Source of the DNA: an uncultured virus (IMG/VR IMGVR_UViG_3300009152_002325)
Lineage: Duplodnaviria > Heunggongvirae > Uroviricota > Caudoviricetes
Length of the DNA: 20,000 bases
Virus record (IMG/VR): IMGVR_UViG_3300009152_002325
Strand: one strand, 5' to 3'
This document shows, in pieces, positions 8,870 through 20,000 of this stretch; the first letter of the stretch is position 1; each line of letters begins with the position of its first letter. Under the pieces are notes generated by a model. That model searched no databases. It was given only the letters and a program-made list of their open reading frames with translations, and was not told the DNA's origin. A program made the translations under genes and the position numbers.

Positions 8870-10450
8870 CTAGTTGACTTGTCTTCCATCTCCTTTTGCA
8901 TTTCTGCCCTCCCCAGATTTATCTGGGGAATTTGCTGATCTCTCTTGGTCACGAGTTCTACTTTGAGTAGCCTGAGCCTTAATTTCGGCTGCCTGGGCTG
9001 CAAGGTCTACTGGGACATCTCCACCTTCTCGTGGGACCATTCCCATTCTTACTCTAATTTCATTTGGAGTAATTACCTGGAATCTAAGATATCTTTCATC
9101 TATTTTAGACTGAGTATCTGCATCTGTTAGAGAAAGCTCATTGAACTTTAGATCCATTGCATCAGTCATTTCTTGAATTATTTTACTTAGCTTTTTTTCT
9201 AGATTTTGCTGTGCTGGAAGACAAACTTGCTCTTTAAATGTCTTATCTGCGTCTCTAGCTGCAGCCAAGTTAATCCCTGCTGGGGTGCCAATTTTATTAA
9301 TTGGTACTCTGTGAGCCATTAATATTTCATCTCTATTTGAATTCCTATACTTTTCAAATGAACCTTCTTGCGCCCCTGCTTCAATTGGCTCCATTTTAAA
9401 TTCAGTTTTTGAGTCTGGTGAGTCTGGTGGAAGTGGTATATATAAAGATCTGTGGTTCTTTCCCTTTAATCCGACCTGGAAAAATTCAAGCAATTTTCTT
9501 TCAGATTCTGGAGAAAGCTTTGCTCCCTTTACTGTAATAATGTATCGAGGGACCGCTTTATTTTCAAAATAATCTAAGTTATATTTACCAGCAAATTCGT
9601 TTCCAGCCATTGCATTTTGTGCAGCAATTATATCTGGGATTCCATAATAGTTATTTTTTGGGGTGTACTTTTTTAAATGAATAATTTCGTTAGGTCTATC
9701 TTCTTGTCCTGCTATAGGGTTTATTGTTTCTGTATCCCCAAAGTTTCTAAAGAATACAGCCTTGCCGTAAAGAAGCTGTATAAAACCGTCTCTAAGGCGT
9801 CTCACACGCATTGTCTTTGAGGGTATGTGGCCAATGTACCCAATCTTTCCAGTCGTCGTTCTACCGACCTCCAGATAGCCATTACCAGTAGCCTCTACGT
9901 CAGTATAGAACTTAATAAGTGTTTCTTTAAAAGTTTCATCTTCGTTACAATCTTCAAGCCATTTATGCAAGTCTTGCTTAATTCTATTCAGCTTCTTACG
10001 TGCTCTTTCTAATTGCTTTTCATCATTAATTTCATCTAAGGCATCCGTTGTCTTTTTTGATTCAATAAAATCAAATCCAAGACCGACTATGTTTGCTACC
10101 TTTGCATTTATAGCAGCGTAGTTGTATGGAGAAATTTCATAAATTGTTGATAGATAATCTAAGTTGTATTCTGGTTGAATTAGATCAAACGTGGCGTACC
10201 CGCTAACTGCTTGTTGATGTTGAAGCTGCTGGCTTACTGCGCCGTCTTTTCCAACAAAAGATTTTTGCAGATCTCTAGAAACTTTTCTTCTAAATGAAGC
10301 TCCCAGTCCTGAAAGCTTTAAAATATCTTCGCCCTCTATATCAAATAGATCGTCTGATTTTTGAGTGGTTGGATTATTAAATCTCATCCAGTCCGCCACG
10401 TTAGAAACCTCTATGTTATTAATAAGCATATCGTCTTCATTCTCAATCAT
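8870..10450 (-). CDS. Portal protein (PBSX/HK97-like family), 526 aa
   Basis: Motifs DVEATGNGYLEVGR, NEIIHLKKYTPKNNYYGIPD, YFENKAVP, RDEILMAHRVP and VITPNEIRVRMG; located upstream of the protease. Confidence 0.93.
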   Translation of the reverse strand: MIENEDDMLINNIEVSNVADWMRFNNPTTQKSDDLFDIEGEDILKLSGLGASFRRKVSRDLQKSFVGKDGAVSQQLQHQQAVSGYATFDLIQPEYNLDYLSTIYEISPYNYAAINAKVANIVGLGFDFIESKKTTDALDEINDEKQLERARKKLNRIKQDLHKWLEDCNEDETFKETLIKFYTDVEATGNGYLEVGRTTTGKIGYIGHIPSKTMRVRRLRDGFIQLLYGKAVFFRNFGDTETINPIAGQEDRPNEIIHLKKYTPKNNYYGIPDIIAAQNAMAGNEFAGKYNLDYFENKAVPRYIITVKGAKLSPESERKLLEFFQVGLKGKNHRSLYIPLPPDSPDSKTEFKMEPIEAGAQEGSFEKYRNSNRDEILMAHRVPINKIGTPAGINLAAARDADKTFKEQVCLPAQQNLEKKLSKIIQEMTDAMDLKFNELSLTDADTQSKIDERYLRFQVITPNEIRVRMGMVPREGGDVPVDLAAQAAEIKAQATQSRTRDQERSANSPDKSGEGRNAKGDGRQVN

Positions 10451-10791
10451 TTTTTACCACCATTCAGCTTAGCCATCTCTTCTTTATGTACACTAATATC
10501 TAAAGGATCTGGAGTAAGTCCCCATCTTAATCTTTGCTTTTGATACTCAAACTCTTCGTCGTCAATTTGTCTGCTTCCCTCAATAAACTTAGGCTGGCCG
10601 ACGTCAATTCCATAGTGAGCAACTGCTGATGCTAGCAGAGCAATTCTTTCTTTATTACCAATCATTGATGCTATTGATAGGAAGTTGTTGTCTTCATCTC
10701 CAACCCATCTGCCATCTGGCATCTCCCAGACATAAACACCCAATCTGGTATCCCCAGATTTCATTTGAGCATTAATTCTTTTTATGTCCAT
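10447..10791 (-). CDS. Hypothetical protein, 114 aa, coupled to the portal gene
   Basis: Its stop overlaps the portal start (ATGA); GVYVWEMPDGRWVGD motif; no function recognised. Confidence 0.75.
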   Translation of the reverse strand: MDIKRINAQMKSGDTRLGVYVWEMPDGRWVGDEDNNFLSIASMIGNKERIALLASAVAHYGIDVGQPKFIEGSRQIDDEEFEYQKQRLRWGLTPDPLDISVHKEEMAKLNGGKK

Positions 10792-10799
10792 AGTTAATT

Positions 10800-10828
10800 A
10801 TTTTACCATCTTTATGTCTACAAGTCCA
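10800..10828 (-). promoter_or_regulatory. Extended -10 promoter (probably leaderless) for the portal operon
   Basis: Minus strand TGGACT-N17-TAAAAT with TG extension (TGgTAAAAT); ATG 8 nt downstream and no RBS. Confidence 0.55.
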
Positions 10829-10854
10829 GCCTTTTGTCACCTGACCTGACAAAA

Positions 10855-12618
10855 TTACAGAGTTTGGAACACTACCCTGTCTCTTGAATATGTTGACACG
10901 GGGCCTTGTGTCAATGACATTGACGATCCTTGCCCAACAGATAAAGGCTTTCCTATATAGAGGTCGTAATGCTCTTGGTGGCTAATTAGAGGATTTGTGT
11001 ACAGTGCAATATTTTGATATAAATTATCTTCGAGGACTCCAGTTCTTACTCCCAAAAGCTGCTTGCCATTAAACCAGATCTGACCACTTACTATTGAATT
11101 GGTTTTTATTAATATATAGTTAGGCTCATCTATATATAAGTATGAGGATATATTTGTTGCTGAGGATGCATCTTGGCCATTAATATAGATATTGCTTATA
11201 TTGGCTTTTGATATTGCTCCGCCTGCCGCCCAAGAAAGGTAGGTTTCTGTAGATCCAGTTTTGTTAAATATTAAGTGGCCACTAGATAATGATTTTGGAG
11301 TAAATATCATTTCAATATTTCTAACATCTTCTGCTGAGTTTATAAAAAATGCTGAAGATTTTGGCCTTATACCGTTGTCATAGTTTCTGGTTCTAATTGG
11401 ATATTTATTGTTGGACACATCAAAATCCCAAGTGCCCCCAATGGTTGGTTGCGAAGTAGATAGAGTACTTCCTCCATTATGAGAAAACATCTTCTTCTCA
11501 GAATGAAAATAAATCTTTAAAGAGTAAAGTTCTGGCAAGTAAATGTCTGAGTTTGTAGATGTAAATACAAATCTAAAGTATAGTATTTTGGTTGAAGAAA
11601 ATGCAGAACCTTGAGAAAAGCCTGGTATTGATGATCCATTTACACACGGTGTCCACGGTCCAGTTTCAGATGTTTCCGACACATATACTGAGACTCCTTT
11701 TGAAGCTACCCACTCTATCTTTGAAGATACATATTGATTTGTAATGTTTAAAACTATATCTTCTACAAATTCTCCGCTAGTAAATCCTGAATTTAAATAA
11801 ATGCTATTGTTATTTTGATTATACGAAATTGCTGCATTATCATATATGAGGTCTTTCCAAGGTACCTGAACTGGATAAACATATTTTGTTGTTATGTCTT
11901 GGTATCTTTCTGCGCCTCTAAATAACTCACCTAACTCTGGAACTGCAATCTGCTCATCATTATTTAAAAATAAATTATTGTAGTGTGATAGTATTGAGTT
12001 TCCAGAAAGAGCATATCTGTAAACTGCTGGGCAGTCTATTATAAAATGTTCCCCTGCTGGCGCTGGTCCACATGATAGTGTTATACTTGTATTTGTAAAA
12101 GATATGGATATAGGTTTGCTTTCAACTAAAACTCCATCTATATACAAACTCATTGAGCTTATAGAATACACTCCAACAATATGAAGCACTCTATTTGGAT
12201 TAGGAACAGAGTAATCAAGCCTTTCATTTTCTAATTTAAATACTACGTTGCCATTATCCCAATACAAACCAATTCCGTCTATGTCTGCAAATATTGGAGT
12301 TATAGATGTTAGCGTTTTTGGATGAAACCATGCTTCAAGCGTAAAGTCATTGTCATATGTTGATGGTGTTCCAAAACCTCCTGTGCCTGTGGTTCCAGAA
12401 AAATCTTTTGAAATAACAAACTGAATTGATTTAGTGCTATCTATTTTATTTGAATGTCGGCCACCAGAAACTATTGGCATGCCCGATATTTCAATTCCAC
12501 CTACATAAGATCCATTATTACCGCAACCAGAAATATCATAAGCAACAGAACCTGAAGTCTCATCAAGCTTCCATAGTCCAGTAGGTAAATCTTTTATTGT
12601 AGAAAGATAGTATGACAT
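10855..12618 (-). CDS. LamG / concanavalin A-like domain protein, probably virion-associated, 587 aa
   Basis: GLWKLDETSGSVAYDISGCGNNGSY, FTLEAWF, HIVGVYS...LYIDGVL and IDCPAVYRYALS...ILSHY follow the Laminin_G_3-like pattern; Ser/Thr/Asn-rich remainder. Confidence 0.8.
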   Translation of the reverse strand: MSYYLSTIKDLPTGLWKLDETSGSVAYDISGCGNNGSYVGGIEISGMPIVSGGRHSNKIDSTKSIQFVISKDFSGTTGTGGFGTPSTYDNDFTLEAWFHPKTLTSITPIFADIDGIGLYWDNGNVVFKLENERLDYSVPNPNRVLHIVGVYSISSMSLYIDGVLVESKPISISFTNTSITLSCGPAPAGEHFIIDCPAVYRYALSGNSILSHYNNLFLNNDEQIAVPELGELFRGAERYQDITTKYVYPVQVPWKDLIYDNAAISYNQNNNSIYLNSGFTSGEFVEDIVLNITNQYVSSKIEWVASKGVSVYVSETSETGPWTPCVNGSSIPGFSQGSAFSSTKILYFRFVFTSTNSDIYLPELYSLKIYFHSEKKMFSHNGGSTLSTSQPTIGGTWDFDVSNNKYPIRTRNYDNGIRPKSSAFFINSAEDVRNIEMIFTPKSLSSGHLIFNKTGSTETYLSWAAGGAISKANISNIYINGQDASSATNISSYLYIDEPNYILIKTNSIVSGQIWFNGKQLLGVRTGVLEDNLYQNIALYTNPLISHQEHYDLYIGKPLSVGQGSSMSLTQGPVSTYSRDRVVFQTL

Positions 12619-12785
12619 TATTTCCTAAAAAATATCTTTTTAAATTTCCTTAACATATTAGAGGCAGATTGTTTATTTTTTTCATAAGCAGCGTCTGTTC
12701 TTTCAGTAAAGGCATGGCTCTTAAAGTACGGGTTGAATTGAAGGTCTGTAAAGTGCCTTCTAGGGATTCTTTTATAAGGAGTCAT
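12618..12785 (-). CDS. Small basic hypothetical protein, 55 aa (below the ORF-track cutoff)
   Basis: MTPYKRIPRRHFTDLQFNPYFKSHAFTERTDAAYEKNKQSASNMLRKFKKIFFRK*. It fills the gap, its TAA overlaps the LamG ATG (TAATG), and TATAAT lies 7 nt upstream of its ATG. Confidence 0.65.
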   Translation of the reverse strand: MTPYKRIPRRHFTDLQFNPYFKSHAFTERTDAAYEKNKQSASNMLRKFKKIFFRK

Positions 12786-12792
12786 ATTTAAT

Positions 12793-12820
12793 ATTATACT
12801 ACAACAACTGCCAAAATCAA
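12793..12820 (-). promoter_or_regulatory. Sigma70-type promoter, probably leaderless
   Basis: Minus strand TTGATT-N16-TATAAT, then 7 nt to ATG 12785. Confidence 0.55.
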
Positions 12821-13281
12821 GAGTCTAGTTTTTTATCAATTCCCAGATTTGATAAGAATCTTTCTGGGTCAAATCTCCAATTATCTTTGGCAAATGAGGT
12901 CATTATTTCCATGCAGGTATCTTCGTATGCTTGAATTGAGATTAAAGGCTTTAATTTCAATAGGGTCTCTGTGACATCAATATAATTTGTTCTTAAAAAG
13001 CTAGGGTCTCCAGCCTGATTTCTCTTAAAGACCTTTTCATTAATTCTTCCATTGGGCTCATACAATCTAACTGTTAGATACTGCTTTGCAAAGCCCCAGT
13101 CTTCATACATATTATATGCTTCTGCTGCTTCAATTGCGTTAGGAAAGAAGATAATTGATCTTGCTGGTTCTTCCCCGTCTCTTGCAATTGTAAGCATATA
13201 GGCATCACCTTTTTTATTAGCTACCGCTTCAAGATACTCTTTAACTACATCGTGATGCTCTTGCTTTAGTTGTCCGCTCAT
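12817..13281 (-). CDS. Hypothetical protein, about 154 aa
   Basis: Likely start ATG 13281 (TAATG overlap with the methyltransferase stop); C-terminal FAKDNWRFDPERFL motif; function unknown. Confidence 0.7.
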   Translation of the reverse strand: MSGQLKQEHHDVVKEYLEAVANKKGDAYMLTIARDGEEPARSIIFFPNAIEAAEAYNMYEDWGFAKQYLTVRLYEPNGRINEKVFKRNQAGDPSFLRTNYIDVTETLLKLKPLISIQAYEDTCMEIMTSFAKDNWRFDPERFLSNLGIDKKLDS

Positions 13282-13868
13282 TACGTCCATCCCATGTTAA
13301 AATGTTCTCTATATTCTAGATAATCAATTGCATACGGGTCTACCCACCAGTCTTCATGCCATTGCCTTACAACTAGCTTATAGCCGAGAGAGGATAAGAT
13401 TTCTCGTTGGGCTTCTCTCATGCCTTTATTATTATATTCAATTTGGGCATCATGCTCAAAAGTTATTATAGAGTATCTGTATTTGCTTAATGGAACTGCT
13501 AATAGTCCATGCAGTGTTAGATAGGGATTTCCTACAGCATTTCCTTGTGGCGTATATCCAGCATCAATATCTACTTGCAGGTAATCAATTTGTTTTGGGA
13601 AATTATTTTCTTCAAAATATGAAAGGTAATTAAAATGCGTAGCATCTCCAAGGATACATGGGTTTTTTCTATTTGATACAAACTCTGCGTGTCTTTGCTT
13701 GTCTATCTCAAATGATACGCCGTTCCAATTATAGTCTGTTTCTAGATGATAGGTGTTGCTTCCTTGCTTTGAATCAAAAGCACCAAGCTCTACGTAAAAC
13801 CCATTTTCTTTATTTTTAAGTAACTGAGTAACAAATCTTTCTTGACCACTATTACCTTTATATTCCAT
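13281..13868 (-). CDS. FkbM-family (Methyltransf_21-like) SAM-dependent methyltransferase, 195 aa
   Basis: GQERFV...NGFYVELGAFD...SNTYHLE..YNWNGVSFEID, IDYLQVDID, IITFEHD and LGYKLV....EDWWV. Confidence 0.75.
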   Translation of the reverse strand: MEYKGNSGQERFVTQLLKNKENGFYVELGAFDSKQGSNTYHLETDYNWNGVSFEIDKQRHAEFVSNRKNPCILGDATHFNYLSYFEENNFPKQIDYLQVDIDAGYTPQGNAVGNPYLTLHGLLAVPLSKYRYSIITFEHDAQIEYNNKGMREAQREILSSLGYKLVVRQWHEDWWVDPYAIDYLEYREHFNMGWT

Positions 13869-14445
13869 TTATTTCTCCAAAAACATCTTTATTCAAAGAC
13901 ACAACTTCATTTAGTTTATGCTTTGCAAACATTGTAGATATGTATCTAGTTATATTATCTTGAACTGGAAGTGTTCCATGAAGTATCTCTCCAGCATGCA
14001 GAAGCAATGATCCTGCAATTGGTTTATGGGTTATCCCAAGATCTGGATACCTTAGCTCTCCGCCTTTATAGTCATCATTATAATAAATAACTACTCCATA
14101 AAAAACCTGTTCTCCATTAAGTCTGTGGCCATCATGATCATCTGTATGCTCACCAAGGGCATCGTTTAGCATATATCTTTGAAGATTTATTCCAGTTACT
14201 TCTAGATTTCCATTAAATAAATTACAGACTCTTTTATATATATCACTAAATATAGACTCTTTATTTACTAAACTGCTATTTAAAACTTTGTCTGTCCAAA
14301 AATCATACTGTATACCCTCTTCAGACCAATCTAAATTATCTTTAGATTCAGCAAACTGCATTACCTGATCAAGCTCGTCTTGTGTTATAAAATTTTGTAT
14401 TTCATAAACTTGATCAGATAACTTTGCAATTTTATAGTCTAACAT
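13858..14445 (-). CDS. 2OG-Fe(II) oxygenase, prolyl-4-hydroxylase-like (6th of 6)
   Basis: HTD...YYNDDYKGGELRY...HGTLPV....RY: HxD...H iron triad plus Arg for 2OG. Confidence 0.88.
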   Translation of the reverse strand: MLDYKIAKLSDQVYEIQNFITQDELDQVMQFAESKDNLDWSEEGIQYDFWTDKVLNSSLVNKESIFSDIYKRVCNLFNGNLEVTGINLQRYMLNDALGEHTDDHDGHRLNGEQVFYGVVIYYNDDYKGGELRYPDLGITHKPIAGSLLLHAGEILHGTLPVQDNITRYISTMFAKHKLNEVVSLNKDVFGEINGI

Positions 14446-14453
14446 CAACTACA

Positions 14454-15212
14454 TTATTCTTGGTTTTGTTCGTGATAGGCCTTTATGTATTCTTCTGATG
14501 GTCCACCTGGGCCACCTACAACATAACCATCAACAAATATAAATCCAGGAGTAATAAACTTTTCTCCTTCTTTCATAATATGAACTTGGTGCTTGTATGG
14601 ATCTGTAGATGGGAAAATTAATGCGCTTCCAGCTTTTGGCTTTGCAGTAAATGTGACCATGTCTTTAGTCCTTGGGTCTAGCGCATCATCTGGTGGTCTA
14701 AGATGACCATTCATTTCTAATCTTAGATCTTCTGGTCTAATAACAAACGATATTTCTCCGCCTTCATAGTCATCATTCCAGTAAATAATAATTGACCACT
14801 CTAGGCTATTATCTCCAGCTTGTCTATCAAAGTGAGCTCCCATTGCACAGCCTGGAATATACTTTTGTATACCAACAAACGGTGATACGTTTGGAACTCC
14901 CTTAAGGCCTCGATCAACAATAAAAGACTCTGATATATTCTTAATAGCATTTCTAATTGTTGATATAATTAGGTCGACATCTTTTCTTAAATCATCATCT
15001 AGGTTTTCTACTTCAGAAAGGTTAAAATCTTTTTTCTTTCCAAAGATGTTGCCGTCTCTGCTACTTGAATTCCAGTTTTTCCAGCTTGGAATAACCTTAT
15101 GAACTCTTTCATCAGAATCAAGCTTATTAACTAAATCAATAATTGCCTGGGGGTTCTCAATTACATCTGAATACATGTAAACATTTTCATGTAATTTTTC
15201 TTCTAGCTTCAT
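14454..15212 (-). CDS. 2OG-Fe(II) oxygenase, prolyl-4-hydroxylase-like (5th of 6)
   Basis: HFD...YWNDDYEGGEISF, an internal insertion, then PKAGSALIFPS...HQVHIMKEGEKF. Confidence 0.88.
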   Translation of the reverse strand: MKLEEKLHENVYMYSDVIENPQAIIDLVNKLDSDERVHKVIPSWKNWNSSSRDGNIFGKKKDFNLSEVENLDDDLRKDVDLIISTIRNAIKNISESFIVDRGLKGVPNVSPFVGIQKYIPGCAMGAHFDRQAGDNSLEWSIIIYWNDDYEGGEISFVIRPEDLRLEMNGHLRPPDDALDPRTKDMVTFTAKPKAGSALIFPSTDPYKHQVHIMKEGEKFITPGFIFVDGYVVGGPGGPSEEYIKAYHEQNQE

Positions 15213-15955
15213 TTGTCGTTCTCCTCTATTTTATATTTATTTCCATCTAGATCTATTCGGTATCCTTCTTTTAATGCATCTTGCCATTCTGACTTTATAA
15301 CTTCCTGCTCTTCTCTAATTTTTTTCATTTCTGCATCCCAAGCGTCTATTGTTTCTTGTGGATATGATTCTGGTGACCGATCATCCCAAAATGAACCTAG
15401 GGTGTATCTTATTCCAGAAGTTATCATTGTAACCTCATGAGTATTATCAAAGCCTCCTGCAAAAGCTGCTAGCGTTCCAGTCTCTGGGACAAGTGTATGA
15501 TTTTGCTTGTTAAATATTAACTGACCGCCCTCAAACTCATCATTTAAATACAAGAAGGCTGCGTATCTACTTCTTTCAAATGGGCCAGTGTTTCCCTGCA
15601 AATCTGTATTGTCAGAATGCTCTTTAGCATAAGCTCCTGGCTCCCACTTTTGAGCATGAAATCCAATTTTATGAATATCAAATGAAGAATTTCCATGCAC
15701 CTCAGCTACAGCATCAATAATTCTATTTTGAAGAACTGAAAAAAAATCTGATGGCAAGCCGAACTGCTCTAGTTCTTCATCTCCGTCTTGGGGCAAAACT
15801 GATGAGTATGATTCATAGAAAGTGATAGGTGTCCAAGATAGCTTTTCATTTGCAACCTGCGCTTCTAAAACTTTTATAATTGCGGAAGATTCTTCTTTTG
15901 TTAAAAAGTTTTTAAACACTAAAATATCTGGCGTTAATCTTTCTGAAATACTCAT
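15209..15955 (-). CDS. 2OG-Fe(II) oxygenase, prolyl-4-hydroxylase-like (4th of 6)
   Basis: HSD...YLNDEFEGGQLIF...HEVTMITSGIRYT; charged helical C-terminal tail. Confidence 0.88.
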   Translation of the reverse strand: MSISERLTPDILVFKNFLTKEESSAIIKVLEAQVANEKLSWTPITFYESYSSVLPQDGDEELEQFGLPSDFFSVLQNRIIDAVAEVHGNSSFDIHKIGFHAQKWEPGAYAKEHSDNTDLQGNTGPFERSRYAAFLYLNDEFEGGQLIFNKQNHTLVPETGTLAAFAGGFDNTHEVTMITSGIRYTLGSFWDDRSPESYPQETIDAWDAEMKKIREEQEVIKSEWQDALKEGYRIDLDGNKYKIEENDK

Positions 15956-16683
15956 TTATTTATATCTCCATCTAGTAGTGTTCTATGATATTTTTTATTT
16001 GGATCTGGTTGGTTTTCTCCAGTATGCTCTAAAATTTCCCAGAAAAATGGACAAGTGTATCTTATAGCACCTTTAATTTCAGTTACTCCGTGGATATAAT
16101 TCATATCGCCTGGGAAAAAATAAGCTGCTCCCTTTTTAGGTTTAAATTGAACTCCCTGTAGTGGAAAATATAATTCCCCACCTTCGTAATCATCATTCAA
16201 ATAAAATAAGCTTGATAGATCGTAGTATGGAAAATCATTTGGCAATCCAATATCTGGAAGTTCATGAAGCTCTTTATCTGCATGTGGTTTCTGGAACTGT
16301 CCAGGAAGCCAACGAACAATTGTTGTTCCAGTTGGAGTTACTTTAACTTTATAAAAATCTTCAACAATTGGTTTTAGTCTTTCAAACAAACCCTGGAGAA
16401 CGGGCCTAATTGCTGGATCATTTTTGTCTAAAGATGGGCTTGTGCAGACTCTATCTTTCCAATAATTATGATCATATACGGTTGTACCATTTTCATTTAC
16501 ATGGCTCTCCGTTACATCCCAAATGGTAATCTTTCTAGCAGCTGCTTCAAGAAACTCTATTTCTTCTTGTGTCATAAAGTTTTCTAGCTCAACTATCATG
16601 TCCTTGCCAGATCCAAAAAATCCAGATGGGGTTAAAGATGGAGTCTTGTATACGACTGAAGCGTCTTGATTTGTTTGATTCAT
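15952..16683 (-). CDS. 2OG-Fe(II) oxygenase, prolyl-4-hydroxylase-like (3rd of 6)
   Basis: HAD...YLNDDYEGGELYF...PKKGAAYFFPG...HGVTEIKGAIRYT. Confidence 0.9.
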   Translation of the reverse strand: MNQTNQDASVVYKTPSLTPSGFFGSGKDMIVELENFMTQEEIEFLEAAARKITIWDVTESHVNENGTTVYDHNYWKDRVCTSPSLDKNDPAIRPVLQGLFERLKPIVEDFYKVKVTPTGTTIVRWLPGQFQKPHADKELHELPDIGLPNDFPYYDLSSLFYLNDDYEGGELYFPLQGVQFKPKKGAAYFFPGDMNYIHGVTEIKGAIRYTCPFFWEILEHTGENQPDPNKKYHRTLLDGDINK

Positions 16684-16689
16684 ATTCTT

Positions 16690-16698
16690 ATTATATCA
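16690..16698 (-). promoter_or_regulatory. Extended -10 promoter (probably leaderless) inside the oxygenase cluster
   Basis: Minus strand TGATATAAT, whose TGA is the upstream stop codon; 6 nt to ATG 16683 and no RBS. Confidence 0.5.
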
Positions 16699-17412
16699 TT
16701 TCTCATTGCTTGAAGTAAGGTCAGTAATTTTTAACTTTAAAGACTTAACCTCATGGCTTCCAAGGACGGTGCCATCGTAATCTACTGCATCTCTATAGAA
16801 ATTTGTGAATCCACCTGATTGAGTAATTTTATCCCAGGCCTTAAGTCTCGCTTGTCTACGTATATGCTCTGACTCAGTAAATACTTTATCTTTTACTTCG
16901 AGCTCTACATTTTGATACTCTGACAAAGATATAGGGATAAATGTTGCCACTGGCATGCCCGCTGGAATCTTTATAACAGTATTCGGTCTTGTTATTTTCC
17001 ATGCAATTGGTATGCCCTCTTTTAAAACAGATGTTGAAATAATTGTTGTAAATGGAGTAGCTCCATCTACAAAAAAATTAGGAGGAACTATTTGAAGCAT
17101 TGAAACATTTGGATCCGTCTCAAAGAAAAACCCAGAGTAAAAACTAATTGTGCCATTTGCTCTTTGGCCAGTAGCAACTTGTGCTGGATCCGATATTATC
17201 TTTACATGATCTGGAGTCGTATCTGAAATACCATCCCAACTGAACTCAATATCATCTAAAAATGAGATTGACCAACCAATTGTATTTGCCAAAGAAACTG
17301 GAAAACATTTGTATGCATGGGCATTTAGAGTTTCATCCATCCAGTCTCTTTTAACTTTAGTTTGTTCTATTTTAGACCTAGTCTGTTTATTTTTATAGGC
17401 TGTTATTTTCAT
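16696..17412 (-). CDS. DUF6065-like protein, about 238 aa
   Basis: Probable start MKITAYK (17412). KRDWMDET..AHAYKCFPVSLANTIGW, PPNFFVDG and WKITRPN..I.IPAGMPVATFIP match my recollection of DUF6065. Confidence 0.7.
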   Translation of the reverse strand: MKITAYKNKQTRSKIEQTKVKRDWMDETLNAHAYKCFPVSLANTIGWSISFLDDIEFSWDGISDTTPDHVKIISDPAQVATGQRANGTISFYSGFFFETDPNVSMLQIVPPNFFVDGATPFTTIISTSVLKEGIPIAWKITRPNTVIKIPAGMPVATFIPISLSEYQNVELEVKDKVFTESEHIRRQARLKAWDKITQSGGFTNFYRDAVDYDGTVLGSHEVKSLKLKITDLTSSNEK

Positions 17413-18103
17413 TGATTTCGTTATCCCATTTTGGATCATACATCTCTTGAGTATGAAATTTTTTACTATAGTCAAGCATAGTTACTATAGAATATTTTGT
17501 TCCTTTGGTTACAGCTTTTGCTTGATGAGGGTACATAAAGTTAGATGGGAAAATATAAAGGTCTCCAGCTCTTGGCTTAATATCTAGGCCCTGAAGTCTA
17601 AAATACAATCCTCCATCATCATAGTCATCGTTAACATAACCAACCAAGGACACAACGCAATTATAAGAATATCCGTGGTCTTGGTGCTCCATAAAATGTT
17701 GGCTTTCTCCATATTTAATAAAATTAAAAGCTTCCCAATATTTAAGCTCCATAATATTATGCGCTTTGCAGTAATCTACAACTACTGGATATTGAGCATC
17801 ATAAACATCTTGCCATAGAGATTTTAACTTTTCAGCATCTTCACTTTTATCAAGAGCTATATCGCTTTTTTTAAATTTGAAATCTACGCAATCTCTATAG
17901 TCTGGCATTAACTGTTGATACCCAACATAAGCTGGCTGATAAGAATATCTTTTTTCTTTACTGCCAACTGGACCAACTGAGCCTTCAAGTCTATTTATAA
18001 TGTCAAATTCTTTTTTTAATACGTCTCTATATACAAATATTCCAGGAGCCAACTCTTCTTTGCTACTCCATGTTGGAGATGTGCTTTTCTTTTCTGTTGT
18101 CAT
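17393..18103 (-). CDS. 2OG-Fe(II) oxygenase, prolyl-4-hydroxylase-like (2nd of 6)
   Basis: EAFNFIKY...HQDHG...YVNDDYDDGGLYF...PRAGDLYIFPSNFMYPH......GTKYSIV. Confidence 0.9.
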   Translation of the reverse strand: MTTEKKSTSPTWSSKEELAPGIFVYRDVLKKEFDIINRLEGSVGPVGSKEKRYSYQPAYVGYQQLMPDYRDCVDFKFKKSDIALDKSEDAEKLKSLWQDVYDAQYPVVVDYCKAHNIMELKYWEAFNFIKYGESQHFMEHQDHGYSYNCVVSLVGYVNDDYDDGGLYFRLQGLDIKPRAGDLYIFPSNFMYPHQAKAVTKGTKYSIVTMLDYSKKFHTQEMYDPKWDNEINENNSL

Positions 18104-18873
18104 TTATATTCTCTCTTTTTCCAAATTTTTGACTTATACACTCCACCGTCGGGCTGACGATAAAACTTTGCATTATCCATTAGTTTTTTTTGCATTTCTT
18201 TTACATCAAGATACTCAACTTCGTGGCTCCAGTCTTCTCTTTTAAATGGAAGTACTTGTAGAAATGGTGTGCCTTTTGGGACAGTTCCTTCCCAATCTTT
18301 TGCAATAAAAAATGGAAATGTACCAAGTAAGTGGACCTCATCATTATCAACAATACCGCTGGTATTCAAGAAAGGCAAATCAAATCTATTCATTGGTGTC
18401 ATAAATAATGCACTGTATCCTTTTGGAACTTGAATTCCCCATTCTGGGTACCAAGCAAAATGATCTTCGTGATAACCAACTGGAGATGGAAATTGCTGCA
18501 TAGGAGGTCTTTCTGTTACAAAGCCTACATGCTTTTTATCTTTTATCTCTACAGATATTTTTCCCTTTTTATTTTTTGAAAAAAATAAATCGCATGGCGT
18601 GCTTAATACATATCCAGTCATAAATGCATCTAGTATTGCTGGGCAAGCCTTCCATGTTGGAATTTTACCATAGTCATCTTTTGTGCCTTCCCTTGGGATA
18701 GGGCAAACCTCTTTAGTGGCTTTATAGTATTCTCCATTTGGCATTTTTGCAAATCTGTCCGCCTCTTTGTACCATTCAGGAATACTGCCCTGAGTTGGCT
18801 TTGGTAAAGAAGGGCTGAATTTATCTAGCCATGGTCTAAAAGATTGAAATAGTATTTTAATATTTTTGTCCAG
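18100..18873 (-). CDS. DUF6065-related protein; true start uncertain (track start 18744, frame open further upstream)
   Basis: TWKACPAILDAFMTGY, WGIQVPKGYSALFMTPMNRFDLPF..SGIVDND and PKGTPFLQVLPFKREDW parallel the motifs of 16696..17412. The upstream in-frame stretch KILFQSFRPWL...IPEWYKEADRF looks coding. Confidence 0.6.
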   Translation of the reverse strand: MDKNIKILFQSFRPWLDKFSPSLPKPTQGSIPEWYKEADRFAKMPNGEYYKATKEVCPIPREGTKDDYGKIPTWKACPAILDAFMTGYVLSTPCDLFFSKNKKGKISVEIKDKKHVGFVTERPPMQQFPSPVGYHEDHFAWYPEWGIQVPKGYSALFMTPMNRFDLPFLNTSGIVDNDEVHLLGTFPFFIAKDWEGTVPKGTPFLQVLPFKREDWSHEVEYLDVKEMQKKLMDNAKFYRQPDGGVYKSKIWKKREYK

Positions 18874-19561
18874 TCTCTTCTTTATGATAGAGATCGTTAT
18901 AATCCATCATAATAACTACAGAATATTTTGTTCCAGATGATATATTTAAAGAAGCATGCTCGTAAACAAAGTTAGATGGAAACAGTATTATATCTCCTGC
19001 TTTTGGTTTTAAAATCATATCATGTCTTGGAAATTCAATTTCTCCGCCCACGTAATCATCATTTAAATATACAACTGCTGATACCGTACATGTGTAATAT
19101 GGACCATGGTCAGCATGTATTTTAAAAAACTCTCCTGGTAAATATTTTACAAAGTTAAATGCTTCTTTATAATTAATATTAAAATTCCATTCTGATTCAT
19201 AATGTCTTAATGCTTTATTTAATCCAATATCAACAATATCATAGCATTCTCTTAAAACATCACTGTCAGAAATATATTTACCAATTTGATCTTTTTTAAA
19301 TTTTAAATCATAACAATTTCTGGCATGAGTAGTTCTATCTTTTCCATTAACTCTTGCGCCATTCCATTGAATTCCAACTTTTTCTAAAGATATTTCTTCT
19401 TCAAGCATGGCAATTAGATTTTGGCAGTCTTCTTTACTTATTGCATTTCTATAAAGATTTATCCCGTATTCAAGGTTTTCAACAACAATGTTTTCATCAA
19501 TTTTTTTTGATTCAACTCTTGAAGTTGTTTTTTCAATTCTTGGTAGGTCATACCATTCCAT
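18857..19561 (-). CDS. 2OG-Fe(II) oxygenase, prolyl-4-hydroxylase-like (1st of 6)
   Basis: EAFNFVKY...HADHG...YLNDDYVGGEIEF...PKAGDIILFPSNFVYEH......GTKYSVV; clear paralog of 17393..18103. Confidence 0.9.
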   Translation of the reverse strand: MEWYDLPRIEKTTSRVESKKIDENIVVENLEYGINLYRNAISKEDCQNLIAMLEEEISLEKVGIQWNGARVNGKDRTTHARNCYDLKFKKDQIGKYISDSDVLRECYDIVDIGLNKALRHYESEWNFNINYKEAFNFVKYLPGEFFKIHADHGPYYTCTVSAVVYLNDDYVGGEIEFPRHDMILKPKAGDIILFPSNFVYEHASLNISSGTKYSVVIMMDYNDLYHKEETGQKY

Positions 19562-19575
19562 AGTATCTCATTTCT

Positions 19576-19584
19576 ACTATAACA
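19576..19584 (-). promoter_or_regulatory. Possible extended -10 promoter for the oxygenase cluster
   Basis: Minus strand TGTTATAGT 14 nt upstream of ATG 19561; TTGAAT lies upstream at a short 15-nt spacing. Confidence 0.35.
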
Positions 19585-19623
19585 TCTTATCATACTATTC
19601 AAGAAAAGAAAAGTATATTTTAT

Positions 19624-20000
19624 TTAGTATCCTCTAAAGTATGGGAAGTACGGTCCGCCGCCAAAACTTGGGAAGAACGGTGGGAAGAACGGTCCAAATG
19701 ATGGGAAGTATGGTGGGAAGAACGGTCCAAATAATGGGAAGAACGGGAAGCTTGGTCCCTTAAAGAACGGGAAGTATGGTGGGAAGAACGGCGGGAAGAA
19801 TGGTGGGAAGAATGGGAAGAACGGTGGGAAGAACGGCGGGAAGAATGGTGGGAAGAATGGTGGGAAGAATGGGAAGAAGGGTGGGAAGAACGGTGGGAAG
19901 AACGGTGGGAAGAACGGTGGGAAGAATGGGAAGAACGGTGGGAAGAACGGTGGGAAGAACGGGAAGAACGGTGGGAAGAATGGTGGGAAGAATGGGAAGA
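19624..20000 (-). CDS. C-terminal part of a Pro/Phe repeat protein (start outside the window)
   Basis: Absent from the ORF track. 124 complete sense codons, then TAA at 19624-19626: ...FPFFPPFFPPFFPFFPPFFPPFFPFFPPFFPPFFPPFFPPFFPFFPPFFPPFFPPFFPPFFPFFPPFFPPFFPPYFPFFKGPSFPFFPLFGPFFPPYFPSFGPFFPPFFPSFGGGPYFPYFRGY*. Same strand as all other genes; variation in the core is at Pro third positions (CCA/CCG/CCC). Confidence 0.8.
   Translation of the reverse strand, partial: FPFFPPFFPPFFPFFPPFFPPFFPFFPPFFPPFFPPFFPPFFPFFPPFFPPFFPPFFPPFFPFFPPFFPPFFPPYFPFFKGPSFPFFPLFGPFFPPYFPSFGPFFPPFFPSFGGGPYFPYFRGY
19641..20000. repeat. Coding tandem repeat of 12-nt (YGGYGGGAAGAA) and 9-nt (YGGGAAGAA) units
   Basis: Seen directly. 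All unit lengths are multiples of 3. Pure Pro/Phe from 19777 to the window edge, degenerate towards 19641. Confidence 0.95.

What the first reader, a model, noticed from the sequence alone, without database searches (positions are those of the whole stretch)
13281..20000. Candidate phage protein-modification system: PPFF polymer plus six prolyl-hydroxylase-like oxygenases, two DUF6065-like proteins and a methyltransferase
Seen: a protein tail with 49 Pro and 57 Phe in 124 residues (hand count) ends about 60 nt upstream of a co-oriented, overlapping run of nine enzyme-like genes, which in turn precedes a LamG protein and the portal/capsid module. Established: prolyl 4-hydroxylases are 2OG-Fe(II) enzymes acting on Pro-rich repeats (collagen, plant extensins, algal Hyp-rich glycoproteins), and FkbM-family enzymes are SAM-dependent O-methyltransferases. 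Inference: the repeat is the substrate of the adjacent enzymes, with Pro and perhaps Phe/Tyr hydroxylated and then methylated or glycosylated, giving a modified virion fibre or coat, or a RiPP-like product. I do not know of a characterised phage system like this.
Basis: partly seen in the sequence, partly recalled or inferred. Interest (0 to 1): 0.9.

Follow-up and report, generated by a model that had tools for sequence, protein, structure and literature searches.

The report
Phage proline-phenylalanine fibre with hydroxylase array
An uncultured freshwater actinobacterial phage encodes a fibre-like protein ending in a 150-residue proline-phenylalanine polymer right next to a block of six prolyl-hydroxylase-like enzymes, a pairing kept in well over a hundred related viral contigs, which makes the unknown role of the many oxygenase genes in aquatic phages directly testable.

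Summary
The window's last 124 codons (57 Phe, 49 Pro) are the C-terminus of a 532-aa protein with fibronectin-III (FN3) domains and a 150-aa Pro/Phe tail. It ends 62 nt before six 2OG-Fe(II) oxygenases, two DUF6065-type proteins and a weakly FkbM-like protein, followed by LamG and portal genes. All six oxygenases keep the HxD...H iron triad. A modelled one is closest in fold to the chlorovirus collagen prolyl hydroxylase.

The pairing recurs. Of 80 flanked viral loci found by a (PPFF)4 DNA pattern, 63 have oxygenase or DUF6065 genes within 3 kb of the repeat gene. Of 66 assessable loci found through DUF6065, all 66 have a Pro/aromatic-repeat FN3 protein directly upstream, including PPGFFA and FCPFFPN variants. 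In relatives the repeat is followed by self-cleaving fibre modules (Peptidase_S74, intein-like).

No deposited phage genome has a DUF6065 homologue. The nearest cultured relative examined (Streptomyces phage Genie2) lacks both enzymes and repeat.

Best reading (about 0.5): a virion-fibre maturation system in which the enzymes hydroxylate the Pro/Phe rod. The chemistry is untested. Inherited synteny with other substrates is the main rival. DUF6065 has a dUTPase-like fold and its role is unknown.

The parts
19624..20000 (-). C-terminal 124 residues of the 532-aa FN3-(Pro/Phe)n protein. The whole gene is G000:C1:51763-53361, so it runs about 1.2 kb past the window end.
   Evidence: 57 F and 49 P in 124 residues. 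Full ORF and 150-aa tail with 70 F and 61 P. Pfam fn3 6.8e-10. 12-nt tandem array.
19562..19623 (-). 62-nt spacer between the repeat gene and the first oxygenase
   Evidence: Promoter-like and terminator-like sites in 12500-20000 are no more frequent than in shuffles.
18857..19561 (-). oxygenase 6, 2OG-Fe(II)_Oxy_3 (P4H-like), 234 aa
   Evidence: Pfam 1.6e-10, 42.2 bits against cut-off 27. phrog_61 1e-30. Weak PDB hits to lysyl hydroxylase LH3 and B. anthracis P4H. HxD...H plus Lys.
18100..18744 (-). DUF6065-related protein 2, 214 aa
   Evidence: phrog_7084 6e-32, shared with the DUF6065 protein. No Pfam hit. Aligns with DUF6065 proteins at 13% identity.
17393..18103 (-). oxygenase 5, 2OG-Fe(II)_Oxy_3, 236 aa
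   Evidence: Pfam 1.2e-11. HxD...H plus Lys.
16696..17412 (-). DUF6065 protein. The start is probably the ATG at 17412, by homologues. Upstream alternatives are 17439 and 17475.
   Evidence: Pfam PF19541 1e-33, 117 bits. Model pLDDT 91.7. dUTPase/dCTP-deaminase fold: Foldseek E 1.6e-4, VIA Z 10.5. Invariant Cys, His and Trp residues in 30 homologues.
15952..16683 (-). oxygenase 4, 2OG-Fe(II)_Oxy_3, 243 aa. Homologues occur in most of the arrays examined, including the smallest ones.
   Evidence: Pfam 3.5e-8. Model pLDDT 89.8. Best Foldseek match is the PBCV-1 collagen prolyl hydroxylase 5c5t, E 1.2e-10.
15209..15955 (-). oxygenase 3, 2OG-Fe(II)_Oxy_3, 248 aa
   Evidence: Pfam 5.3e-9. Triad kept.
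14454..15212 (-). oxygenase 2, 2OG-Fe(II)_Oxy_3, 252 aa
   Evidence: Pfam 8.4e-9. Triad kept.
13858..14448 (-). oxygenase 1, 2OG-Fe(II)_Oxy_3, 196 aa
   Evidence: Pfam 1.1e-6, 30 bits against cut-off 27. Triad kept.
13281..13868 (-). 195-aa protein, weakly FkbM-methyltransferase-like
   Evidence: No family hit of its own. PF05050 in 6 of 9 homologues, best E 0.0021. Atlas neighbour cluster with PF05050 in 52% of members, score 0.97. Profile against PDB gave 0 hits.
12817..13290 (-). 157-aa conserved protein of unknown family, between the array and LamG
   Evidence: No family hits. Homologues hold the same position in close relatives.
10855..12618 (-). LamG (Laminin_G_3) protein, 587 aa. It starts the head module shared with Streptomyces phages.
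   Evidence: Pfam 1.1e-14. A 578-aa hypothetical protein and a small gene hold the same position before the portal in phage Genie2.
8870..10450 (-). portal protein
   Evidence: Pfam Phage_portal 3.2e-31. 57-59% identity to Streptomyces phage portals.

Best explanation
This is a virion-fibre maturation module of an uncultured freshwater actinophage. The 532-aa protein has four FN3-like domains followed by a 150-residue Pro/Phe rod. It is a fibre or whisker component, encoded right after an Mtd_N-type tail-fibre gene. The genes that follow encode prolyl-hydroxylase-type Fe(II)/2-oxoglutarate dioxygenases. These hydroxylate the prolines of the rod in the infected cell before assembly, and possibly other positions too. 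They would also act on the (PPFF)8 linker of a 917-aa protein encoded in the tail module. Hydroxylation would make an extremely hydrophobic polymer soluble and stiffen its polyproline-type conformation. Old, diverged paralogues (18-32% identity to oxygenase 1 in alignment A5) would each serve a different position or stereochemistry. The DUF6065 proteins and the FkbM-like protein are accessory, with roles unknown. Shown: the gene content, intact catalytic residues, prolyl-hydroxylase-like fold, the conserved pairing, and the fibre context. Inferred: that the repeat is the substrate, the chemistry, and the virion location.
For: (1) Pairing from the repeat side. Of 80 flanked viral loci found by the (PPFF)4 DNA pattern, 63 have an oxygenase or DUF6065 gene within 3 kb of the in-frame repeat ORF, median gap 130 nt. 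Five more have arrays with the repeat ORF cut at a contig end.
(2) Pairing from the enzyme side. All other 66 have an FN3 protein with a Pro/aromatic repeat directly upstream: 57 by regex and 9 by inspection.
(3) The link survives change. There are four junction types (repeat gene next to ox6, ox4 or ox5 on the same strand, and ox4 convergent). Some loci place the repeat gene between the array and the portal. DUF6065 identity falls to 27%. The repeat itself varies (PPFF, PFFPPFF, PPYF, PPHF, PPWF, PPGFFA, PPSFFS, FCPFFPN). It always keeps Pro plus aromatic residues, with F in the second place after PP in 2396 of 2419 tallied cases.
(4) Both parts are absent together. No DUF6065 homologue exists in 50,697 deposited phage genomes. 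Oxygenase-4 relatives there are only distant cyanophage genes. Phage Genie2, whose portal is 57% identical, has neither the enzymes nor a (PPFF)2 pattern.
(5) Enzymes. All six, and three further paralogues in the genome, keep HxD...H and a basic residue. The oxygenase-4 model's best matches are the PBCV-1 collagen prolyl hydroxylase, bacterial and algal P4Hs, P3H1 and PHD2, interleaved with PiuC-type oxygenases of unknown substrate.
(6) Fibre context. An Mtd_N fibre gene lies directly upstream. A second PPFF stretch sits in a 917-aa protein downstream of the tape measure. In relatives the repeat is followed by Peptidase_S74, the endosialidase chaperone (3.7e-11), or by an intein-like domain (profile hit to a bacterial intein-like domain at 3.6e-6, 15 of 15 hits inteins).
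(7) Exact-match contigs from two lake RNA libraries lie on ox6, DUF6065-2 and three gene junctions. This is weak: DNA carry-over is not excluded.
Against: No result shows hydroxylation or binding. All loci checked seem to belong to related WhiB-carrying actinophages, so part of the synteny may be inherited and not selected. The same genome has three more Oxy_3 genes, two Asp/Asn-hydroxylase-like genes and a JmjC-like gene far from any PF repeat. Complete relatives have 8-13 Oxy_3 matches. Many of these enzymes may therefore have other targets. Cyanophages carry multiple such oxygenases with no known repeat partner (passages of PMC3037559). DUF6065 has a dUTPase-like fold, which points to nucleotides if anywhere. 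Characterised P4Hs act, from recall, on X-Pro-Gly, PAPK or Ser-Pro type motifs. A Pro flanked by Phe is untested. Twelve of the 80 pattern-found loci show no oxygenase within 10 kb: seven long tail-type proteins and five others. Of five such whole records only two show DUF6065; the three negatives are 25-50% fragments.
Confidence: 0.5

Rival explanations
1. The array is a block of auxiliary oxygenases with other substrates: host proteins such as translation factors, small molecules, or simply consumption of 2OG. It sits next to the repeat gene only because this actinophage lineage inherited that gene order.
For: All loci tested look like related actinophages. WhiB is in this genome and in 3 of 5 records of the most diverged clade. 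LamG and portal follow the array in most set-2 loci. More oxygenases lie scattered elsewhere in the genome. Cyanophages have multiple 2OG oxygenases, explained so far by 2OG or nitrogen signalling or by DNA repair. A bacterial P4H that modifies EF-Tu is among the fold matches (5v7y).
Against: Phage genomes are mosaic, yet the pairing holds in 66 of 66 assessable loci and through four junction types, strand flips and relocation. In some relatives further protein-modifying genes (Sulfotransfer_2, Asp_Arg_Hydrox) are inserted exactly between the repeat gene and the array. The nearest cultured relative examined lacks both parts.
Confidence: 0.28
2. The Pro/Phe tail is the substrate, but the product is not a virion part. 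It is cut off and released as a modified peptide or polymer, a RiPP-like or secreted material acting on the host or its envelope.
For: Relatives end the repeat with self-cleaving domains, intein-like and S74. The genome also holds a radical-SAM/SPASM protein and a subtilase. There is a weak NCBIfam hit of oxygenase 3 to a cyclophane-peptide oxygenase, E 0.001 and far below cut-off.
Against: The repeat is fused to 1-5 FN3 domains, not to a short leader. It occurs as an internal linker in a 917-aa protein of the tail module. The self-cleaving domains lie C-terminal to the repeat, so cleavage there would remove the domain and leave the repeat attached to the FN3 part; S74 is, from recall, a trimeric-fibre chaperone. 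The rSAM and subtilase genes are 40 kb away.
Confidence: 0.1
3. The block modifies nucleotides or DNA. dUTPase-fold DUF6065 proteins handle a nucleotide, oxygenases oxidise a base as TET/JBP enzymes do, and the FkbM-like protein methylates.
For: DUF6065's top 22 wide structural matches are all dUTPases or dCTP deaminases, apart from two herpesvirus proteins (HCMV pp71, MHV-68 ORF10), Z up to 10.5. There are weak Tet_JBP hits for oxygenases 1 and 4, at 20.1 and 17.7 bits against a cut-off of 34.9.
Against: The Tet_JBP hits are below threshold. The modelled oxygenase matches prolyl hydroxylases best. DUF6065 shows no Pfam dUTPase hit. The same fold occurs in non-dUTPase viral proteins, as the pp71 and ORF10 rows show. 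This reading explains neither the constant repeat-protein partner nor the sulfotransferase or AspH insertions.
Confidence: 0.06

Closest known systems
Chlorovirus PBCV-1 prolyl 4-hydroxylase (vCPH) and the virus's own proline-rich repeat proteins
   Same: A virus encodes both a P4H-type 2OG oxygenase and proteins with short proline-rich tandem repeats. The oxygenase-4 model's best structural match is this enzyme (5c5t, E 1.2e-10). That PBCV-1 P4H hydroxylates (Pro-Ala-Pro-Lys)n-type viral repeats is recalled from Eriksson et al. 1999 and was not read here.
   Different: Here the virus is a bacteriophage. The repeat is about 80% Pro plus Phe with no charge. There are 6 clustered paralogues (9 in the genome, 8-13 in relatives). 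They are accompanied by DUF6065 proteins and physically linked to the repeat gene.
Mimivirus collagen-like proteins with the bifunctional lysyl hydroxylase/glucosyltransferase L230 (recalled, not read here)
   Same: Virus-encoded enzymes post-translationally modify virus-encoded repetitive fibre proteins. Lysyl hydroxylase LH3 is the top PDB sequence hit of oxygenase 6.
   Different: The window's repeat has no Gly-X-Y collagen motif and no Lys in its regular part. A glycosyltransferase of a Hyp-GlcNAc family is in this genome but in only 1 of 5 relatives.
Multi-copy 2OG-Fe(II) oxygenase genes of marine T4-like cyanophages
   Same: Several P4H-like oxygenase genes per aquatic phage genome, of unknown function (passages of PMC3037559). 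The only deposited-phage relatives of oxygenase 4 are these, at 24-31% identity. They share phrog_61.
   Different: Those are explained by 2OG or nitrogen signalling or by DNA repair, with no substrate gene proposed. Here a candidate protein substrate is encoded next door. No DUF6065 exists in deposited phages.
Plant extensins and hydroxyproline-rich glycoproteins; mussel foot proteins (from general knowledge)
   Same: Pro-rich repeats interspersed with aromatic residues, made functional by prolyl hydroxylation and further modification. The result is rod-like or adhesive extracellular material.
   Different: There is no Ser-Pro4 motif and the Extensin Pfam family is not matched by the PF protein. 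Phe, not Tyr, dominates: 39% F against 3.7% Y over 176 repeat regions. Any cross-linking or adhesion is speculation.
Phage tail-fibre C-terminal autoprocessing modules (Peptidase_S74 chaperone; bacterial intein-like domains)
   Same: Relatives' repeat proteins end in S74 (3.7e-11) or in an intein-like domain whose first residue is Cys. In the S74 case the residues before the domain ('...PPAFK') equal the natural C-terminus of many short relatives.
   Different: The window's own protein has neither module. It ends in a Gly/Tyr-containing P/F tail, '...RGY'.

Membership tests
2OG-Fe(II) oxygenase, P4H-type (Pfam PF13640) | Profile match above the curated gathering score | tested here: met
   Six of six array proteins score 30-45.9 bits against cut-off 27. 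Three more in the genome.
2OG-Fe(II) oxygenase, P4H-type (Pfam PF13640) | HxD...H iron-binding triad and a basic residue for the 2OG C5 carboxylate | tested here: met
   H100, D102 and H156 are invariant in nine paralogues. R or K lies about 10 residues after the distal His. The role of the basic residue is from general knowledge.
2OG-Fe(II) oxygenase, P4H-type (Pfam PF13640) | Double-stranded beta-helix fold closest to prolyl hydroxylases | tested here: met
   Oxygenase-4 model pLDDT 89.8. Top Foldseek hits are vCPH 5c5t (1.2e-10), B. anthracis P4H, Chlamydomonas P4H, P3H1, PHD2 and C-P4H-II, with PiuC-type proteins of unknown substrate interleaved. Only one of the six was modelled.
2OG-Fe(II) oxygenase, P4H-type (Pfam PF13640) | Peptidyl-proline hydroxylation activity | not testable with these tools
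   Needs an enzyme assay.
DUF6065 (Pfam PF19541) | Profile match above cut-off | tested here: met
   16696-17475: 117 bits against cut-off 26.6. For 18100-18744 the feature is not met in Pfam; it is related through phrog_7084.
dUTPase / dCTP deaminase superfamily | Beta-barrel fold of the superfamily | tested here: met
   Foldseek E 1.6e-4 to EIAV dUTPase. In the VIA wide search Z is 10.5, and the top 22 are dUTPase/dCD chains apart from two herpesvirus proteins, pp71 and ORF10.
dUTPase / dCTP deaminase superfamily | Sequence-family membership and the conserved dUTPase motifs | tested here: not met
   No dUTPase Pfam or NCBIfam hit at E<=0.01. 7-14% identity to the matched chains. The individual catalytic motifs were not mapped.
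FkbM-family methyltransferase (Pfam PF05050) | Profile match | tested here: inconclusive
   The window protein has 0 families even at E<=5. Six of 9 homologues match, best E 0.0021. There is an Atlas lead of 0.97 to a cluster with PF05050 in 52% of members. The PDB profile search gave 0 hits.
Collagen triple helix | Gly at every third residue (Gly-X-Y) | tested here: not met
   The window's tail has 7 Gly in 150 residues, none periodic. The variant PPGFFA or PPSFFS repeats of relatives do place G, A or S at every third position.
RiPP precursor with tailoring enzymes | Short leader-core precursor beside its maturases and a leader peptidase | tested here: not met
   The repeat follows 382 residues of FN3 domains. 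It is also internal in a 917-aa tail-module protein. There is no peptidase in the array.
Hint / bacterial intein-like domain (in relatives only) | Profile similarity to inteins and an N-terminal Cys | tested here: met
   A profile of 12 domains gave 2lwy 'bacterial intein-like domain' at 3.6e-6, and 15 of 15 hits are inteins. Cys1 is invariant. Single-sequence Pfam hits are below cut-off. The domain is absent from the window's own protein.

The most novel reading that the evidence does not exclude
The array is a production line for a new kind of biological material. An uncharged Pro/Phe (Tyr, Trp, His) polymer is oxidised at several defined positions by a set of specialised paralogues: 4- and 3-hydroxyproline, perhaps dihydroxyproline, beta-hydroxy-Phe or aryl cross-links. 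DUF6065 would be a dUTPase-fold protein with an invariant Cys/His pair recruited as a new type of protein-modifying enzyme or substrate chaperone. Sulfation, methylation or glycosylation would be optional extras. The product would be a stiff or adhesive whisker by which abundant freshwater actinophages find their tiny hosts. The same logic would then explain the long-unexplained oxygenase multiplicity of aquatic phages in general.
Probability: 0.2. Interest if true: 0.9.

Novelty: new variant of a known kind. Interest (0 to 1): 0.78.

Why it matters
Aquatic phages carry many 2OG-Fe(II) oxygenase genes whose function has stayed open since the first cyanophage genomes; the passages read offer only 2OG signalling or DNA repair. 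Here a whole clade of uncultured freshwater actinophages offers a concrete, genetically linked candidate substrate. That turns the question into a simple biochemical experiment: peptide, enzyme, Fe(II), 2OG, mass spectrometry.

If true, this would be the first phage case of virus-encoded prolyl hydroxylation of a virion protein. It would define a new repeat class, (PPFF)n, that is almost confined to phages: 10 stretches in 185,579 prokaryote species genomes, at least half of them phage-like MAG contigs. It would also give a first functional context to DUF6065.

My text searches found no paper on PPFF repeats in phages, on DUF6065, or on hydroxyproline in phage virions.

Tried and rejected
1. 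Complex prediction of oxygenase 4 (alignment A3) with 48 residues of the PF tail and Fe gave 'no answer': score 0.02 against a mark of 0.32, and controls were not run. It says nothing either way.
2. The other-strand reading of the repeat, (GGKN)n, and the other open frames were rejected. Only the FPPF frame continues into a long ORF with FN3 domains and is the in-frame reading in relatives.
3. A promoter and terminator scan of 12500-20000 found no more sites than in shuffles. It gives no information on operon structure.
4. PDB sequence searches gave only chance-level hits for the DUF6065 protein, the 195-aa protein, the GlcNAc-family GT and a single intein-like domain.
5. tblastn of the FN3 part against deposited phages gave no match; the low-complexity filter may be the cause.
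6. The full DUF6065 alignment A1 was too diverse for a locus search.
7. A homologue search with DUF6065 returned 776 proteins. All 120 listed are unnamed, 'hypothetical' or 'DUF6065', so there is no functional lead.
8. I tested whether PF11397 (a GlcNAc transferase family that I recall as the Skp1-hydroxyproline GlcNAc transferase family) is a constant part of the system. It is present in 1 of 5 related records, and in 1 of the 4 that are at least 90% complete, so it is not a core part.
10. RNA-library contigs cover only parts of the array. Uncovered parts mean nothing, and transcription is not proven.

Full report
WHAT IS THERE

The window is bases 32140-52139 of a 116.5-kb virus record estimated 97% complete. 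All genes from 8870 to 20000 lie on the minus strand, packed or overlapping.

The neighbouring genes have 4.9% Phe and 4.6% Pro. The DNA is a 12-nt tandem array of 25.7 copies.

Five of six frames are open over the repeat, so the frame had to be settled. With the whole record laid, the FPPF frame runs on into a 532-aa ORF with an ATG start. Its first 382 residues are FN3-like repeats (Pfam fn3 6.8e-10; a 273-nt duplication). Its last 150 residues hold 70 Phe and 61 Pro. In other runs all four indels inside the repeat are 3 nt long.

THE ENZYMES

Pfam places six proteins in 2OG-FeII_Oxy_3 above the gathering score, and 16696-17475 in DUF6065 at 1e-33. The protein at 18100-18744 has no Pfam hit but shares phrog_7084 with the DUF6065 protein.

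The six oxygenases, and three more elsewhere in the genome, keep an invariant HxD...H and a basic residue after the distal His. They are only 18-32% identical to oxygenase 1 in alignment A5, so they are old paralogues.

A model of oxygenase 4 (46-sequence alignment, pLDDT 89.8) is closest to the PBCV-1 viral collagen prolyl hydroxylase (E 1.2e-10). Next come PiuC-type oxygenases, bacterial and algal P4Hs, P3H1, PHD2 and human C-P4H-II.

A model of the DUF6065 protein (pLDDT 91.7) has a dUTPase/dCTP-deaminase fold. Foldseek gives E 1.6e-4. The wide VIA search gives Z 10.5, and its top 22 chains are of that superfamily apart from two herpesvirus proteins, pp71 and ORF10. It has no sequence-family match to dUTPases. 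Among 30 homologues a Cys, a His, Trp residues and Asn residues are invariant.

The 195-aa 'methyltransferase' has no hit of its own. Six of nine homologues touch PF05050 (FkbM), best E 0.0021. An Atlas neighbour cluster carries PF05050 in 52% of members. That name is a lead only.

THE PHAGE

The portal is 57-59% identical to portals of Streptomyces phages of the Stanwilliamsviridae. In phage Genie2 a 578-aa hypothetical protein and a small gene precede the portal, as LamG and a small gene do here. Upstream of them Genie2 has lysis and nucleotide genes, not oxygenases.

The genome encodes WhiB, a DnaE-type polymerase and a 3867-aa tape measure. G+C is 34-44%. Near-identical DNA is held by freshwater and lake metagenomes from several studies. 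I read it as an uncultured freshwater actinophage.

Directly upstream of the repeat gene lies a 1119-aa protein with an Mtd_N (tropism-determinant) N-terminus. A second protein with (PPFF)8, 917 aa, sits among the large genes downstream of the tape measure.

DOES THE PAIRING RECUR?

From the repeat side. In 113 of the 120 the pattern is in frame in an ORF. The 80 flanked loci break down as follows:

| Loci | What they show |
|---|---|
| 63 | An oxygenase or DUF6065 homologue within 3 kb of the repeat ORF |
| 5 | An array present, but the repeat ORF cut at the contig end |
| 7 | A long (700 aa or more) tail-type protein with an internal PPFF linker, no oxygenase within 10 kb |
| 5 | Other cases: one cut contig, one 62-aa ORF in a 455-kb contig, three unexplained |

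For the 63, the median gap is 130 nt. The seven long proteins resemble this genome's second copy, which lies 40 kb from the array. Whole records of five of the long type show DUF6065 elsewhere in two. One of those two is the only complete record. The three negatives are 25-50% fragments.

From the enzyme side. Fourteen lack 1.5 kb of upstream sequence. Fifty-seven have a regex-defined Pro/aromatic repeat ORF upstream on the same strand. The other nine, inspected by eye, all have an FN3 protein with an irregular P/F repeat (PFFPFFPPFF, FCPFFPNFCP) in that place. That makes 66 of 66.

The link is not one frozen arrangement. The neighbour of the repeat gene is oxygenase 6 (18 loci), oxygenase 4 on the same strand (16), oxygenase 4 convergent (15), oxygenase 5 (6) or others. 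In two loci the repeat gene lies between the array and the portal. DUF6065 identity falls to 27%. The most diverged clade is still actinophage-like: WhiB is in 3 of 5 records, and the other two are 22-23% fragments.

In 185,579 prokaryote species genomes the pattern occurs 10 times, all in MAG contigs. Six loci (five contigs) are the same phage-type protein with oxygenases nearby. Four are short ORFs without oxygenases.

Deposited phage genomes (50,697) hold no DUF6065 homologue, and only distant cyanophage relatives of oxygenase 4. Genie2 has no (PPFF)2 pattern. The nearest cultured relative examined therefore lacks both parts.

WHAT THE REPEAT PROTEINS LOOK LIKE

Across 176 distinct repeat regions the composition is 40% Pro, 39% Phe, 3.7% Tyr and about 3% each of Gly, Ser and Ala. 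Lengths are 34-165 residues (some ORFs are truncated). After Pro-Pro the second residue is Phe in 2396 of 2419 tallied cases. The first is F, Y, G, S, H, V, A or W.

One clade uses hexads such as PPGFFA or PPSFFS, which put a small residue at every third position.

N-termini are one to five FN3 domains, a PASTA domain or a small domain. C-termini fall into classes:
- a bare '...PPxFK';
- a Cys-rich tail;
- a Gly/Tyr-containing P/F tail, as in the window;
- a Peptidase_S74 endosialidase-chaperone domain right after '...PPAFK' (3.7e-11);
- a roughly 155-aa domain starting with an invariant Cys. Its 12-sequence profile hits a bacterial intein-like domain (3.6e-6) and mini-inteins, 15 of 15 hits.

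S74 and intein-like domains are self-cleaving (general knowledge). Their presence marks the repeat proteins as matured fibre-type proteins. In some relatives a Sulfotransfer_2 gene and an Asp_Arg_Hydrox gene are inserted between the repeat gene and the array.

HOW IT MOST LIKELY WORKS

I commit, at about 0.5, to a fibre-maturation module. The FN3-PF protein, and the PPFF linker of the tail-module protein, are made in the infected cell. The P4H-type paralogues hydroxylate their prolines, and possibly other positions. The modified rod becomes part of the virion.

Shown: gene content, catalytic residues, prolyl-hydroxylase-like fold, the recurrent pairing and the fibre context. Inferred: substrate identity, chemistry and virion location. 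The role of DUF6065 is open. Its fold hints at nucleotide binding, but the pp71 and ORF10 rows show the same fold in non-dUTPase viral proteins.

Against this reading:
- All loci may belong to one broad actinophage group, so inherited synteny contributes.
- The genome has further oxygenases far from any PF repeat, and complete relatives have 8-13 Oxy_3 matches.
- Cyanophages carry similar enzymes without a known partner.
- No known P4H has been tested on Pro flanked by Phe (recall).

The rivals are inherited synteny with other substrates (0.28), a released RiPP-like product (0.10) and nucleotide or DNA modification (0.06). They are set out in their own section.

COMPARISON AND NOVELTY

The closest known system is chlorovirus PBCV-1, whose own P4H hydroxylates the virus's proline-rich repeats (recalled; the structure match is). 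Mimivirus collagen with its hydroxylase/glycosyltransferase is the second (recalled). Multi-copy oxygenases of cyanophages are the nearest phage relatives, but no substrate is proposed for them.

This case differs in four ways. The host domain is bacterial. The repeat is an uncharged Pro/Phe polymer. The paralogues are numerous. DUF6065 is a constant companion, and the array is physically linked to the substrate candidate.

My searches found no paper on PPFF repeats in phages, on DUF6065 or on hydroxyproline in phage virions. Searches gave only background. I file it as a new variant of a known kind, and keep open a bolder reading: a new oxidised Pro/aromatic material and a new role for a dUTPase-fold protein.

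LIMITS

- Gene calls in loci are stop-to-stop ORFs matched by phmmer at E<=1e-3 to the window's proteins.
- Only one oxygenase and one DUF6065 protein were modelled.
- RNA evidence is limited to exact-match contigs in two lake RNA libraries over parts of the array, which does not prove transcription.

Noticed in passing
outside the window: G000:C1:10562-13315 (-) = L127:10562-13315: A second PPFF protein: 917 aa with an internal (PPFF)8 linker before a C-terminal FN3-like domain. It lies among the large genes downstream of the tape measure. It ends in '...GGGY', much as the window's protein ends in '...RGY'.
   Followed up: partly
outside the window: G000:C1:92147-92389 (-) and 92553-93182 (-) (L131:147-389, L131:553-1182): An 80-aa protein with an (APAKK)8 tail lies beside a JmjC_2-like 209-aa ORF. 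The tail has sub-threshold HC2 and Extensin_1 hits and is histone-H1-like. This is a second 'repeat protein next to an oxygenase' pair in the same phage.
   Followed up: no
outside the window: G000:C1 about 65.7-105.3 kb (loci L129-L131): There are many more oxidative or protein-modifying genes: a TylF-like O-methyltransferase next to another Oxy_3 on the plus strand, two more Oxy_3, two Asp_Arg_Hydrox, a radical-SAM/SPASM protein, a subtilase, a PF11397 GlcNAc-family glycosyltransferase, APS kinase, ferritin, AhpC, a CMD-family protein and Cpn10. PF11397 occurs in only 1 of 5 related records.
   Followed up: partly
window 1-1578 (-), continuing to G000:C1:22114-33717: The window begins inside a 3867-aa tape-measure gene (PhageMin_Tail 3.2e-26), very long for a 116-kb phage.
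   Followed up: no
window 19777-20000 in public runs X20 and X6: The summed contig depth over the repeat is hundreds of times that of the flanking genes in an estuary RNA library and a freshwater DNA run. Many records fit two places. PF-repeat DNA from many phages is therefore abundant in such samples. Depth from contigs is only a rough guide.
   Followed up: no
control genomes of the genome search: Both DUF6065 and 2OG-FeII_Oxy_3 'ring' above cut-off in the Caulobacter vibrioides control genome. Whether they are neighbours there could not be seen. If they are, DUF6065 plus oxygenase would be a pair independent of phages.
   Followed up: no
relatives: L170:8062-9325, L166:831-2079, L181:5369-6638: Sulfotransfer_2-like and Asp_Arg_Hydrox-like genes are inserted between the repeat gene and the array in the PPGFFA clade (Pfam run on L170 only). 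This genome instead has an APS kinase elsewhere.
   Followed up: partly
relatives: e.g. L086:1882-2817, L040:17182-18138, L186:505-1515: Several repeat proteins end in 30-50-residue tails with 8-12 Cys, knot-like. This may be a distal tip domain. No family was found for the one scanned.
   Followed up: no
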